Shown: positions 18,417 to 20,915, counted from the first letter of the stretch. The stretch is DNA of 40,644 bases from a phage (GCA_017062915.1 GCA_017062915.1_4331.1); one strand, 5' to 3'. Notes: generated from the letters alone by a model not told the origin. A program made the numbers and translations.

Positions 18417-18458
18417 TGTTATATTGTAACAATAGTTTGAGATTTTACTGAGTGACTT

Positions 18459-18495
18459 ACGCTGCTACACAGCAGCGTATCATTTTTCTCATTTT
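18459..18495 (+). terminator. rho-independent terminator
   Basis: ACGCTGCT-ACAC-AGCAGCGT followed by ATCATTTTTCTCATTTTT. Confidence 0.55.
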
Positions 18496-18796: not shown

Positions 18797-19000
18797 ATGA
18801 CCAGCATCTTATTTATCTGGGTGCTGTCCGCAGGCCAGATGCAACTGGCGGCATCAGAAACGTTTTATTCGATGGAGGCGTGCCAGTCAGCGGCACGCGC
18901 CGCAGAGAACGCGCACTTTCTGTTTCAGGGTGACAAGCCCAACGATTCAGAGGTACGTGCTATCTGCTCACCTAAGCGACTTGGTAAACAGGAGAAGTGA
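18797..19000 (+). CDS. hypothetical protein with hydrophobic N-terminus
   Basis: 67 aa; N-terminal MTSILFIWVLSAGQMQLAA looks like a signal/anchor segment. Confidence 0.45.
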   Translation: MTSILFIWVLSAGQMQLAASETFYSMEACQSAARAAENAHFLFQGDKPNDSEVRAICSPKRLGKQEK

Positions 19001-19179
19001 TTATGGTACAGAGATACTCTAATAACGGGTTTTGTGTAGCGGACGCTGACGGTGGATACGTTAAATACGAAGACTATGTGAAACTCGAAGCCGAGTTACA
19101 GAAATACAAAGACCAGTTTCCGGATTACGTCGAGTGCGCGAACTGTGGGTCAATTACGCATGTGGAAGGGGTGGAGTGA
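18997..19179 (+). CDS. hypothetical protein
   Basis: 60 aa, coupled; CANCGS near the C-terminus. Confidence 0.45.
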   Translation: MIMVQRYSNNGFCVADADGGYVKYEDYVKLEAELQKYKDQFPDYVECANCGSITHVEGVE

Positions 19180-19346
19180 TGTCGTTAGCAACTGATATCC
19201 TGAAACGAAGCGGCCTTGCACCGCTGTCACCACGTAAAAGACATTTCAACACGCGTCCGACGTATCTTGAGTTACATGAGCGCCGGAAGACACCCGCACA
19301 ACGACTGGCTGAATATTGGAATAAGAGATATTCGGATAAATCCTAA
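19179..19346 (+). CDS. small basic hypothetical protein (55 aa)
   Basis: ATG overlaps the upstream TGA (TGATG); RBS GGGGTGGAG. Confidence 0.4.
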   Translation: MSLATDILKRSGLAPLSPRKRHFNTRPTYLELHERRKTPAQRLAEYWNKRYSDKS

Positions 19347-19398
19347 CCGTGGTATCCTCCAGGTACAGCATACTAAATACGCACCTGGAGGATTCATC

Positions 19399-19707
19399 TT
19401 GGATAAATTTACTGAAACAGTGACGGGCTGGCTTCTGGCTGCCGCACTAGCTGGCGGGGTAATAGGCTTACGACAACACAAAGCCACTATTACCGGCCCT
19501 GTCGATGCTCTCTGTTTTCTCGCCACTGGCTTTGCGTGTGCCGTATTCGGTGCGCCTCTCGCCGCTCAATGGTTCGGTATCGCAGGTGAACGCGAAATAG
19601 CGGGCCTTGGATTCATCATTGCTATTCTCTGGATGCCGATTTATTCCCGTCTCTCTGGCATTGTCGCCGGAGAATACATCGCACGTCGCGGAGGTGGTAA
19701 TGAATGA
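19399..19707 (+). CDS. holin-like membrane protein
   Basis: About three predicted TM segments (GWLLAAALAGGVIGL, LCFLATGFACAVFGAPL, GFIIAILWMPIY); TTG start 7 nt after SD GGAGG; immediately upstream of the endolysin. Confidence 0.5.
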   Translation: MDKFTETVTGWLLAAALAGGVIGLRQHKATITGPVDALCFLATGFACAVFGAPLAAQWFGIAGEREIAGLGFIIAILWMPIYSRLSGIVAGEYIARRGGGNE

Positions 19708-19981
19708 ATTATTCTGGTTTGGCGGTATGCTCGCAATCGGAGGTACATCGCTGTTTAACGTATACCACCCCAGTGTGGACGATGGCCTGTTTGGCCGTGT
19801 GCTGTATATCCTCACCGCTATTGTCTGCGCTGCCGGTTGTATTCACCTGTTACATGGCAGCATGTCGCCGACGCTGCCGGAAACACTAATCACCCTGGTA
19901 GCGCTGCGACAGATTCGTCAGTCGTGGCTGCATTACCAGTCGAAAGGAGGACATAAGCGTGTCTCGAAACATTTCAGATAA
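19700..19981 (+). CDS. second holin/antiholin-like membrane protein
   Basis: 93 aa, two hydrophobic helices and a basic C-terminus; ATG overlaps the upstream gene end, RBS GGAGGTGG. Confidence 0.45.
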   Translation: MNELFWFGGMLAIGGTSLFNVYHPSVDDGLFGRVLYILTAIVCAAGCIHLLHGSMSPTLPETLITLVALRQIRQSWLHYQSKGGHKRVSKHFR

Positions 19982-20465
19982 TGGATTGCAGTTCAAGAAA
20001 GCGTGGGAGAAGTTTCGCGGAACTGCCTACAAAGCAACAAAGAACGAAAAATACTGGACTATAGGCTGGGGCCATACCGGGCCTGAAGTGTACGAAGGGC
20101 AGAAGATTACCGAAGGTCAGGGACTTCTGCTACTGAACCGCGATATGCAGTGGGCAGTGAAAGCAGTTGATGAAGTCGCGCACCCCTCACTGACCCAGGC
20201 CCAGTTTGATGCTGTTGTCGACCTGGTGTTCAACGCCGGAACTGGCGTGATTGCGGCTACTACTGGCACGTGTAAGGCACTACGGCAGGGAGACATCCCT
20301 ACTCTACGACACAAGATGAGTCAGTTTATCAACCAGCGTAACCCGAAAACCGGTAAACTTGAGCCTGTGCTTGGCCTACGCCGTCGCGTAGCTGGTCGTC
20401 TGGCACTGTTCGACGGTAAACCGTGGCAGGAGGCTGAGGCTATTGGACGCGCGGTGAAAGGTTGA
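19959..20465 (+). CDS. endolysin, phage lysozyme (T4-lysozyme-like GH24 muramidase)
   Basis: GTG start with strong RBS AAAGGAGG; conserved GH24 core KYWTIGWGHTG with upstream Glu; 168 aa. Confidence 0.8.
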   Translation: MSRNISDNGLQFKKAWEKFRGTAYKATKNEKYWTIGWGHTGPEVYEGQKITEGQGLLLLNRDMQWAVKAVDEVAHPSLTQAQFDAVVDLVFNAGTGVIAATTGTCKALRQGDIPTLRHKMSQFINQRNPKTGKLEPVLGLRRRVAGRLALFDGKPWQEAEAIGRAVKG

Positions 20466-20581: not shown

Positions 20582-20610
20582 TTGACACCTAAGACTAATC
20601 CTACGATACT
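20582..20610 (+). promoter_or_regulatory. sigma70-type promoter TTGACA-N17-GATACT driving a very short terminated transcript
   Basis: Perfect -35, 17-nt spacer; predicted start about 40 nt before the terminator at 20652. Confidence 0.4.
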
Positions 20611-20651
20611 TAAATCACCTCCTGTTCCATCCCTCTGCTCTCCAGTTTTAT

Positions 20652-20681
20652 CCCGGCACTGACCCAGCCGGGATTTTTTTT
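20652..20681 (+). terminator. strong rho-independent terminator
   Basis: CCCGGC-ACTGACCCA-GCCGGG followed by eight T. Confidence 0.7.
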
Positions 20682-20703
20682 ATCTATTTTCTGCAATGAC
20701 TAG

Positions 20704-20765: not shown

Positions 20766-20915
20766 ATGAAAATAACAGATATCGAAGCATTCAAAGACGC
20801 ACAACTTATGGCACGTATCGCCGTTAGTAATCTCAGCACTGCTGTACCTGCGGACGCGTTCTGGTTCGCTGCGATGCAGACACTGAAAGCAGCTTATGCA
20901 GGAGAGAAGAAATGA
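20766..20915 (+). CDS. small hypothetical protein (49 aa)
   Basis: RBS GGAG; stop overlaps the next start (ATGA). Confidence 0.4.
   Translation: MKITDIEAFKDAQLMARIAVSNLSTAVPADAFWFAAMQTLKAAYAGEKK

What the first reader, a model, noticed from the sequence alone, without database searches (positions are those of the whole stretch)
19356..19401. Hairpin predicted to sequester the Shine-Dalgarno sequence of the holin-like gene
A perfect 9-bp inverted repeat, CCTCCAGGT (19356-19364) and ACCTGGAGG (19383-19391), flanks an 18-nt loop. The 3' arm contains the GGAGG that would serve as SD for the TTG start at 19399. Folding would occlude the ribosome-binding site, which could delay or meter holin translation and hence lysis timing.
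Basis: seen in the sequence. Interest (0 to 1): 0.45.

Follow-up and report, generated by a model that had tools for sequence, protein, structure and literature searches.

The report
Hairpin hiding the holin ribosome-binding site
A conserved RNA hairpin just upstream of this phage's first holin gene buries the gene's ribosome-binding site, and probably keeps the lethal lysis protein from being made off transcripts that read in from upstream genes; this is a known kind of control (phage T4 lysozyme, lambda S) found here in a phage group where it has not been described.

Summary
The inverted repeat is real and longer than reported: 11 perfect bp (19354-19364 / 19383-19393) around an 18-nt loop, -18.4 kcal/mol. 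GGAGG (19387-19391) sits in the 3' arm, 7 nt before a TTG start (19399) that homology confirms. An 11-bp repeat is not rare on its own (about 0.6 expected per window). Its position and conservation make the case. Among 41 Kagunavirus-type relatives the intergenic stretch is about 12 times less variable than holin third-codon positions. All stem changes found are wobble or compensatory.

Homologous holins from five other lineages (L043, L044, two Jerseyvirus types, Dhillonvirus) carry hairpins of different sequence that also bury their SD. An extended -10-like motif, TGnTAnnnT (19350-19358), overlaps the base of the 5' arm in all six lineages. A promoter there would start transcripts in the loop, without the anti-SD arm.

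Best reading: a T4 gene-e-like insulator. Read-through RNA is translationally silent and, in some relatives, terminated. Transcripts from the cassette's own promoter expose the SD. The structure is well supported; the promoter is inferred. This is a new member of a known kind, of moderate interest.

The parts
19329..19349 (+). Conserved block upstream of the hairpin (TATTCGGATAAATCCTAACCG). It holds the stop codon of the upstream ORF (TAA 19344-19346).
   Evidence: It is kept whether the upstream gene is a hypothetical protein or an HslV-like protease. Nucleotide diversity is 0.05-0.08, against 0.35 at holin third-codon positions. TTATTAAGATA is also kept in L043, where the spacer differs.
19350..19358 (+). 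Extended -10-like motif TGGTATCCT (TGnTAnnnT), overlapping the first 5 nt of the 5' arm. Putative promoter element (inferred); the predicted start site is about 19365.
   Evidence: T, G, T, A and T are invariant and the 'n' at 19352 is the most variable base nearby. It is one of only two gapped 5-of-9 patterns out of 35,840, both at this site, shared by the five lineages then in hand. It was then found in Dhillonvirus as TGATATAGT. Background density is about 1 per kb per strand. The promoter scan does not call it.
19354..19364 (+). 5' arm of the hairpin, ATCCTCCAGGT. It contains CCUCC, the same core as the 16S anti-SD.
19365..19382 (+). 18-nt loop (ACAGCATACTAAATACGC). Two weak inner G-C pairs are possible.
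   Evidence: Conserved within the Kagunavirus type (diversity 0.031), but replaced by unrelated loops of 6-11 nt in L043, L044, Jerseyvirus and Dhillonvirus.
19383..19393 (+). 3' arm of the hairpin, ACCTGGAGGAT, containing the Shine-Dalgarno GGAGG (19387-19391).
   Evidence: SD unpaired probability is about 0.
19392..19398 (+). 7-nt SD-to-start spacer ATTCATC. In relatives it is ATTTATT, which doubles as a U-tract.
19399..19707 (+). Holin-like gene 1 (102 aa, TTG start, three predicted transmembrane segments).
   Evidence: PHROG 2359 holin, E = 3.7e-29, residues 1-96 on profile positions 4-98. No Pfam hit. Annotated as antiholin/holin with 3 TMDs in phage Schulenburg. The TTG start is conserved.
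19700..19981 (+). Holin-like gene 2 (93 aa, ATG). Its start overlaps the stop of gene 1 (ATGAATGA), and it has its own SD, GGAGG, upstream.
   Evidence: PHROG 2508 holin, E = 4.9e-30. SD unpaired probability 0.24.
19959..20465 (+). Endolysin (168 aa, GTG start).
   Evidence: PF00959 Phage_lysozyme, E = 1.4e-24.
19179..19346 (+). Upstream small ORF (55 aa). Its stop lies 7 nt before the stem.
   Evidence: In relatives the nearest real upstream stop is 14 to 60 or more nt away.

Best explanation
The element is a cis-acting RNA hairpin on the + strand mRNA. Its 3' arm is the holin Shine-Dalgarno sequence and its 5' arm is an internal anti-SD (CCUCC).

On any transcript that enters from the upstream genes, both arms are present. 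The 11-bp stem (-18 kcal/mol) forms as soon as it is transcribed, and the 30S subunit cannot reach the SD or the weak TTG start. The lethal holin is therefore not translated from read-through RNA. In several relatives the same hairpin plus a U-rich spacer should also terminate that RNA.

The lysis cassette is expressed instead from its own weak sigma-70 promoter of the extended -10 type (TGGTATCCT, 19350-19358), which lies in the DNA encoding the base of the 5' arm. Transcripts from it would start at about 19365 in the loop. They would lack the anti-SD arm and carry an exposed SD on a 34-nt leader.

This is the logic of phage T4 gene e (lysozyme), applied to a holin and a host-type promoter.

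Shown here: the structure, the SD and start assignment, conservation, covariation, and recurrence in homologous holin genes.
Inferred: the block to translation, the promoter, its start site, and any effect on lysis timing.

The confidence of 0.47 is for the full model including the embedded promoter. That the hairpin is a selected SD-occluding structure restraining holin translation I put at about 0.75-0.85.
For: Structure and placement:
-. Holin 1 has the most occluded SD among about 50 gene starts in the window.

Selection on the pairing:
- In 41 Kagunavirus-type loci, nucleotide diversity is 0.013 in the stem and 0.029 across the intergenic stretch. It is 0.354 at holin codon position 3.
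- In 121 GenBank phages the 96-nt segment is mostly 90-97% identical, while the surrounding 531 nt is mostly 80-90%.
- All 14 sequence variants fold into the same hairpin, at -14 to -23 kcal/mol.
- Across 10 distinct sequences, 94.5% of cells are paired. Three of 11 pairs change on both sides, including U-A to C-G inside the SD itself in L044. No shuffle out of 500 reaches the covariation score, and shifted registers pair in only 24-53% of cells.
- Single changes give G.U pairs only on the + strand RNA (Ivi, L038, L043). This argues for RNA rather than a DNA operator.

Recurrence in homologues with unrelated hairpin sequences:
- L043 (holin 66% identical) and L044 (41%).
- Jerseyvirus-type holin, a homologue at hhalign probability 98.6%, with two hairpin types that differ by a compensatory A-U to U-A change.
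- Dhillonvirus HK578, SO-1 and UAE_MI-01.

Embedded promoter:
- Two overlapping patterns at this one site, TGnTAnnnT and GnTAnnnTC, are the only gapped 5-of-9 patterns of 35,840 present upstream in all five lineages then in hand.
- The motif always overlaps the base of the 5' arm, and the 'n' positions vary.
- It was predicted for Dhillonvirus and then found there as TGATATAGT (5 of 6 matches to the -10 consensus, plus TG). It is the only occurrence in 110 nt. Background is about 1 per kb per strand.
- A start 7 nt after the -7 T lies beyond the anti-SD in all seven representatives of the five lineages tested. It leaves leaders that fold at only -3 to -6 kcal/mol.

Precedent:
- T4 genes e, soc, 49 and I-TevI (PMC3014915).
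Against: - No transcription start data exist for any of these phages.
- The -10 hexamer in the window is weak (TATCCT, 4 of 6). The best -35 candidate is poor (TTCGGA, 3 of 6; TTAAGA in relatives). The promoter scan does not call the site.
- Presence of one universal 5-of-9 pattern is close to chance expectation (about 0.8 for five independent 120-nt sequences, my estimate). The significance rests on its fixed position and on the single prospective test.
- The lineages share ancestry, so they are not fully independent.
- From the putative start site the SD is still only 0.18 unpaired in the window, and 0.05 in the common variant, because of weak alternative pairings.
- A constitutive sigma-70 promoter does not by itself explain late timing.
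- In the window the hairpin is a poor terminator: 18-nt loop, tail UUCAUCUU, not called.
- More distant holin homologues (38% identity or less, and Pectobacterium phage Wc4-1) lack the arrangement.
Confidence: 0.47

Rival explanations
1. Constitutive throttle. Every holin mRNA contains the whole hairpin. Together with the TTG start it simply sets a very low, constant rate of holin synthesis, through rare breathing or ribosome standby. This sets the lysis clock.
For: - The SD is strong and optimally spaced but buried, and the start codon is the weak TTG (GTG in Jerseyvirus type 1).
- Lower holin translation delays lysis in lambda (bioRxiv 10.1101/2025.05.14.654169).
- Standby binding can override stable RBS structure (title and abstract of PMC5934652 as listed; paper not read).
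- No experimentally mapped promoter exists inside the hairpin.
Against: - Stems of -14 to -25 kcal/mol are far beyond the range in which structure merely tunes initiation.
- A strong SD paired with a strong stem looks like a two-state design.
- This reading does not explain the invariant TGnT just outside the stem, nor its recurrence in six lineages.
- It does not explain why the hairpin is terminator-like in relatives.
Confidence: 0.3
2. The element is mainly an intrinsic transcription terminator marking the end of the upstream operon. The overlap with the SD is a by-product of a compact genome.
For: - The homologous hairpins in HK578, Jerseyvirus type 1 and L044 satisfy the terminator scan: 12-13 bp stem, 6-nt loop, T-rich tail.
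- L043 has the tail UUUAUUUU.
Against: - The window's version has an 18-nt loop and the tail UUCAUCUU, and is not called.
- Jerseyvirus type 2 has a non-U tail (TCCTCTCACCG) yet keeps SD burial.
- SD-in-3'-arm is the common denominator of all six lineages. The U-tract is not.
- A pure terminator directly before the start codon would leave the holin with no mRNA unless a promoter overlaps it. That leads back to the best explanation.
Confidence: 0.12
3. Translational coupling. Ribosomes finishing the upstream ORF melt the stem and hand over to the holin start, so holin synthesis tracks translation of the upstream gene.
For: In the window the upstream stop (19344-19346) is only 7 nt before the stem.
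Against: - A terminating ribosome would reach only about the first base of the stem. This estimate rests on general knowledge of the ribosome footprint, roughly +11 to +13 nt from the P site.
- The distance is not conserved: 14 nt with the protease gene, 30 nt in Schulenburg, 28 nt in L044, and 60 nt or more in L043.
Confidence: 0.03
4. A switch opened by a trans-acting factor or by a signal: a small RNA pairing with the 5' arm or loop, CsrA binding the GGA motifs, or a temperature shift.
For: - The loop is as conserved as the stem within the Kagunavirus type.
- GGA motifs occur at 19388, 19390 and 19401.
Against: - The only complementary 11-mer in the window (20840-20850) is at chance level and is not conserved in relatives.
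- The candidate sRNA at about 20617-20683 does not rank the holin start region among its best targets.
- Loops are unrelated across lineages.
- A stem of -18 kcal/mol is far too stable for a thermometer.
- There is no Rfam match.
Confidence: 0.05
5. A DNA-level feature (protein operator, or a homology block for modular recombination), or a chance repeat.
For: - Mosaic joints lie nearby: VT223 and LSPA1 carry truncated relics of the alternative holin type next to this block.
- About 0.6 repeats of this size are expected per window by chance.
Against: - Variants that keep pairing only as G.U on the + strand, and compensatory changes, fit RNA and not a symmetric operator.
- Homologous holins have hairpins of unrelated sequence at the same place. 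Recombinational homogenisation cannot produce that.
Confidence: 0.03

Closest known systems
Phage T4 gene e (lysozyme) translation-initiation hairpin; also T4 soc, 49 and I-TevI
   Same: The RBS of a lysis gene is sequestered in a helix on long read-through transcripts. A promoter lies in the DNA encoding the 5' strand of the helix, so its own transcripts lack that strand and are translated (PMC3014915).
   Different: - The gene here is a holin, not the endolysin.
- The candidate promoter is a host sigma-70 extended -10 type, not a gp55-dependent T4 late promoter, so temporal control is not self-evident.
- The promoter and its start site are unproven here.
- In relatives the hairpin also looks like an intrinsic terminator.
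Lambda S gene upstream stem-loop (sdi), which controls the S107/S105 dual start
   Same: A stem-loop immediately upstream of a three-TMD holin gene controls ribosome access to its SD (bioRxiv 10.1101/2025.05.14.654169).
   Different: - Lambda's stem is short (nt -21 to -7) and partitions initiation between two AUGs, Met1 and Met3, in a 1:2 ratio.
- Here there is one start (TTG) and no dual-start motif.
- The stem is 11 bp and far more stable.
- There is no detectable protein homology signal: no Pfam hit.
Structure-gated cistrons of RNA phages MS2 and Q-beta, and type I toxin mRNAs (tisB, hok)
   Same: A toxic or tightly dosed small protein has its RBS locked in stable structure. Translation requires unfolding, processing or standby binding. 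This is taken from titles and abstracts listed (PMC5934652, PMC6690012, PMC2978339; papers not read) and from general knowledge.
   Different: Those systems rely on upstream translation, RNA processing or standby sites. Here, coupling is not supported and no processing signal was found.
Rho-independent terminator
   Same: A G+C-rich stem is followed by a U-rich tract. Homologous elements in HK578, Jerseyvirus type 1 and L044 meet the scan criteria.
   Different: The window's copy has an 18-nt loop and an interrupted U tract (UUCAUCUU), and it is not called. The U tract doubles as the SD-to-start spacer.

Membership tests
cis-acting SD-sequestering mRNA hairpin | A stable local helix, beyond what shuffled sequence gives | tested here: met
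   -18.4 kcal/mol for the hairpin alone. z = -4.73, with 0 of 200 shuffles as stable.
cis-acting SD-sequestering mRNA hairpin | The SD (and/or start codon) lies inside the paired region, at a functional distance from the real start codon | tested here: met
   GGAGG 19387-19391 is in the 3' arm, 7 nt from TTG 19399. The start is confirmed by conservation, by in-frame stops in relatives, and by homologous N-termini.
cis-acting SD-sequestering mRNA hairpin | The pairing is maintained in evolution (covariation) | tested here: met
   94.5% of cells paired; 3 of 11 pairs changed on both sides; 0 of 500 shuffles reach the score. Independent hairpins occur at homologous holin genes.
cis-acting SD-sequestering mRNA hairpin | Disrupting the stem raises translation, and compensatory changes restore repression | not testable with these tools
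   Needs reporter fusions or toeprinting.
T4 gene e-type promoter-in-hairpin control | A promoter within the DNA of the 5' strand, so that its transcripts lack that strand | tested here: inconclusive
   TGnTAnnnT overlaps the base of the 5' arm in six lineages, including one prospective test. However, the hexamer is weak, there is no -35, the scan does not call it, and there are no TSS data.
T4 gene e-type promoter-in-hairpin control | Read-through transcripts exist and are translationally silent; short transcripts are translated | not testable with these tools
   Only predicted folds are available: SD unpaired about 0 in the long RNA, and a leader of -3.2 kcal/mol in the short RNA.
Lambda S-type dual-start (sdi) regulation | Two in-frame start codons a few codons apart, giving a holin and an antiholin | tested here: not met
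   There is a single TTG start. The next in-frame start is GTG at codon 8, with no SD. Upstream the frame is closed by a TAA in most relatives.
Lambda S-type dual-start (sdi) regulation | Holin of the lambda S protein family | tested here: not met
   No Pfam family was hit. The protein belongs to PHROG 2359.
Rho-independent terminator | G+C-rich stem, a loop of about 3-8 nt, and a U-tract directly after the stem | tested here: not met
   Window copy: 18-nt loop, tail TTCATCTT, not called. Homologous elements in L099, L085 and L044 do meet the criteria.
RNA thermometer (ROSE / fourU type) | A marginally stable SD helix with mismatches that melts at 37-42 C | tested here: not met
   11 perfect bp, -18.4 kcal/mol at 37 C. 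No Rfam match.
Any Rfam family | A covariance-model match | tested here: not met
   Only two chance-level hits elsewhere in 18800-20100, and none at the hairpin.

The most novel reading that the evidence does not exclude
The hairpin is one copy of a compact three-in-one module that guards holin genes in Guernseyvirinae and Dhillonvirus siphophages. The same roughly 50 nt would act in three ways:
(i) as a terminator for upstream transcription;
(ii) as an anti-SD lock that silences whatever RNA reads through;
(iii) through an extended -10 promoter embedded in the 5' arm, as the source of the only translatable holin mRNA.

The lysis clock would then be set solely by this weak promoter plus a weak start codon, insulated from the rest of the phage programme. 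This would be an independently evolved, host-polymerase version of the T4 gene e device. It would be conserved through complete sequence turnover of the hairpin.
Probability: 0.4. Interest if true: 0.6.

Novelty: new member of a known kind. Interest (0 to 1): 0.45.

Why it matters
Holin dosage sets when a phage lyses its host, and premature holin synthesis is lethal to the infection.

If the model holds, these widely used coliphage and Salmonella-phage groups (Kagunavirus, Jerseyvirus and Dhillonvirus, common in phage-therapy collections) protect their lysis clock with a simple cis element. That element can be mutated to shift lysis time, and it can be reused as a compact insulator part.

There is also a practical point for annotation. 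In these genomes the feature is currently either unannotated or called only a terminator, and the TTG start is easy to miss.

Tried and rejected
- **Upstream in-frame ATG (19276) as the start.** Rejected. Most relatives have an in-frame TAA in the loop, and a different upstream gene.
- **Translational coupling.** The distance from the upstream stop to the stem is not conserved.
- **A trans RNA partner.** The only 11-nt complement (20840-20850) is at chance level and absent from relatives. The candidate sRNA at about 20617-20683 does not favour the holin start region.
- **Rfam.** Nothing at the hairpin.
- **The 'terminator' annotated in fBC-Eco01.** It lies inside the holin gene and is not this hairpin.
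- **Searches that returned nothing useful.** These were search for related loci with the 16-sequence alignment (error); P0019 and P0020 in viral contigs; P0019 in metagenome contigs; and the search for homologous proteins with P0019 (itself only).
- **Distant holin homologues with ATG starts** (L046-L051, L062-L083, Wc4-1). They have no such hairpin, so the feature is clade-specific and not family-wide.
- **Literature.** No paper describes this element or transcription start sites in these phages.

Full report
**Context**

The window is a Kagunavirus-like siphophage (Guernseyvirinae). The best DNA matches are Escherichia phages Schulenburg, Ivi and the K1G group.

The finding lies at the head of the lysis cassette, which has three genes:
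- Holin-like gene 1: TTG 19399 to 19707, 102 aa, PHROG 2359 'holin', no Pfam hit.
- Holin-like gene 2: ATG 19700 to 19981, PHROG 2508.
- A PF00959 endolysin: GTG 19959 to 20465.

All neighbouring genes are on the + strand. The cassette sits among small ORFs, downstream of a divergent region near 16.4-17.4 kb and upstream of the terminase and head genes.

**Observation**

The hairpin alone folds at -18.4 kcal/mol. In a 250-nt context the SD bases 19387-19391 are unpaired with probability about 0. The 81-nt segment has z = -4.73 against shuffles.

I estimate about 0.56 perfect repeats of this size (loop 3-60 nt) per 40.6 kb by chance. The repeat alone is therefore unremarkable, and 9-bp repeats are common. 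Its placement over an SD is the unusual part. Among about 50 crude gene starts in the window, holin 1 has the least accessible SD (0.024; next lowest 0.026; median 0.45). Its local fold is the second most stable.

**Start codon**

TTG 19399 is retained in 38 IMG/VR loci, in Schulenburg and in Ivi. It is also retained in the more distant L043 (holin 66% identical) and L044 (41%).

In most relatives an in-frame TAA lies in the loop, eight codons upstream. The upstream gene also differs between relatives: a hypothetical protein in some, an HslV-like protease in others. The in-frame ATG at 19276 is therefore not the start.

The family consensus begins with MD. Jerseyvirus and Dhillonvirus homologues start with GTG or ATG at the same position, giving MDDK and MDKL.

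**Conservation**

Figures for 41 distinct Kagunavirus-type sequences:

| Region | Nucleotide diversity |
|---|---|
| Stem | 0.013 |
| Loop | 0.031 |
| Whole intergenic stretch | 0.029 |
| Holin codon position 3 | 0.354 |
| Holin codon position 2 | 0.034 |

The conserved island runs from about 19329 to about 19448.

In 121 GenBank phages the 96 nt around the hairpin are mostly 90-97% identical. The 531 nt around it are mostly 80-90% identical.

**Covariation**

The variants all preserve pairing:
- Pair 19363:19384 is G-C in the window, L003 and Ivi. It is U-A in the LSPA1 type, where the stem grows to 13 bp. It is a U.C mismatch in the commonest type.
- Ivi has a C-to-U change and L038 an A-to-G change. 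Both give G.U pairs.
- L043 has three G.U pairs and two pairs changed on both sides.
- L044 changes the U-A pair inside the SD to C-G (CCCCC/GGGGG).

On a 10-sequence alignment, 94.5% of cells are paired and 3 of 11 pairs change on both sides. No shuffle out of 500 reaches the covariation score. Shifted registers pair in only 24-53% of cells.

G.U pairs work only in + strand RNA. This argues against a symmetric DNA operator.

**Recurrence at homologous holin genes**

- L043 and L044 have loops of unrelated sequence, 11 and 6 nt. They keep the stem, the 7-nt spacer and the TTG start.
- The alternative holin of Jerseyviruses (for example VT223) is a distant homologue of the window's holin: BLASTP 25% identity, hhalign probability 98.6%.
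- Jerseyvirus type 1 carries AAUCUCCGAAGG/CUUUCGGAGAUU, then U-rich sequence, then GTG.
- Jerseyvirus type 2 carries CUCCGUA.../...UACGGAG, then ATG. The two types differ by a compensatory A-U to U-A change, and GGAG is in the 3' arm in both.
- Dhillonvirus holins (HK578, SO-1, UAE_MI-01; about 47% identical over residues 25-90) have a 12-bp hairpin, AGUCCCAGUGAG/CUUACUGGGACU. It is followed by a T-rich run (five or six T) and then ATG.
- More distant relatives with ATG starts lack any such hairpin.

SD burial is therefore a clade-specific trait, repeatedly maintained while the sequence turns over completely.

**How the block might be relieved**

Translational coupling is unlikely. The nearest real upstream stop lies 7 nt before the stem in the window. 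In relatives it is 14, 28, 30 or more than 60 nt away.

No trans partner was found, and Rfam has no match.

The data do show a conserved TGnTAnnnT overlapping the base of the 5' arm:

| Lineage | Motif |
|---|---|
| Window | TGGTATCCT (19350-19358) |
| Common Kagunavirus type | TGCTATCCT |
| L043 | TGGTATCCT |
| L044 | TGCTACTAT |
| Jerseyvirus | TGTTAATCT, TGCTAATCT, TGATAATCT, TGCTAACCT |

- The fixed positions are the TG, -12T, -11A and -7T of a sigma-70 extended -10 element. The 'n' positions vary.
- In an unbiased count of 35,840 gapped 5-of-9 patterns, this one and an overlapping pattern at the same site are the only ones shared by the five lineages then in hand. Presence alone is near chance expectation (about 0.8 by my estimate), but the position is fixed.
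- I then predicted the motif for Dhillonvirus. It was found as TGATATAGT, the only occurrence in 110 nt, again on the base of the 5' arm. Background density is about one per kb per strand.
- A start 7 nt after the -7 T falls beyond the anti-SD in all seven representatives tested (A19365 in the window). It leaves leaders of 27-34 nt that fold at only -3 to -6 kcal/mol.

This is the arrangement described for T4 gene e, soc, 49 and I-TevI (PMC3014915).

**Terminator aspect**

The scan tool calls the HK578, Jerseyvirus type 1 and L044 hairpins terminator-like: 12-13 bp stem, 6-nt loop, T-rich tail.

The window's copy has an 18-nt loop and the tail UUCAUCUU, and it is not called. Jerseyvirus type 2 has no U tract.

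Termination is thus an accessory property in some lineages. SD burial is the common one.

**Verdict**

- The SD and TTG assignment is right.
- The structure is under selection.
- I favour, at about 0.45-0.5, a T4 e-like insulator with an embedded promoter. In that model the hairpin silences read-through RNA, and in some relatives terminates it.
- Both belong to known kinds of control: lambda S sdi and T4 e.
- No paper describes the element in these phages.
- Everything about translation, the transcription start site and lysis timing remains inference.

Noticed in passing
window 20582-20683 (+): A consensus-like sigma-70 promoter (TTGACA-17-GATACT, 20582-20610) is followed about 45 nt later by a strong intrinsic terminator (CCCGGCACTGACCCAGCCGGG plus a run of T). 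No ORF lies between them, so this is a candidate sRNA of about 65 nt. It is CU-rich and contains AUCACCUCCU, identical to the 3' end of 16S rRNA (the anti-SD), plus CCCUCU and CUCUCC. It is conserved in phage Schulenburg, where only the terminator is annotated. Rfam gives sub-threshold hits to anti-SD-type sRNAs (RF02278 at 23.8 bits against a threshold of 50; RF02837). The holin start region is not among its best predicted targets.
   Followed up: partly
L040 (VT223) 1501-1720; L042 (LSPA1) 1095-1205: Mosaic relics. VT223 keeps the Kagunavirus-type hairpin, the TTG and about 22 holin codons fused to unrelated sequence, ahead of its functional Jerseyvirus-type holin. LSPA1 shows the reverse: a truncated Jerseyvirus-type holin start ahead of a complete Kagunavirus-type hairpin and holin. 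The two holin cassettes have evidently replaced each other by recombination inside the holin gene.
   Followed up: partly
L041 (Ivi) 748-1185, L040 1071-1511, and many hits: Many relatives carry an HslV-family peptidase gene inserted directly upstream of the conserved block and hairpin. The window instead has a 55-aa ORF (19179-19346). The conserved block starts at the same place in both cases.
   Followed up: no
L043 1399-1501: In this relative an ATG 34 codons upstream is in frame with the holin TTG, with no intervening stop. An N-terminally extended product that would be translated through the hairpin is formally possible there. It is not conserved elsewhere.
   Followed up: no
window 19700-19707: The holin 2 start overlaps the holin 1 stop (ATGAATGA) and has its own GGAGG. 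Translation of gene 2 may be partly coupled to gene 1, so the hairpin could indirectly affect the ratio of the two holin-like proteins.
   Followed up: no
window 18458-18489 (+): A terminator-like hairpin (TACGCTGCTACACAGCAGCGTA, then TCATTTTTCT) lies about 0.9 kb upstream of the holin, within the same-strand run of small ORFs. It may limit read-through towards the lysis cassette.
   Followed up: no
window 19404-19448: The first 16 or so holin codons are nearly invariant even at synonymous sites (diversity 0.003-0.09, against 0.35 for third positions overall). This suggests an RNA-level constraint on the early coding region, or a shared recombination block.
   Followed up: no
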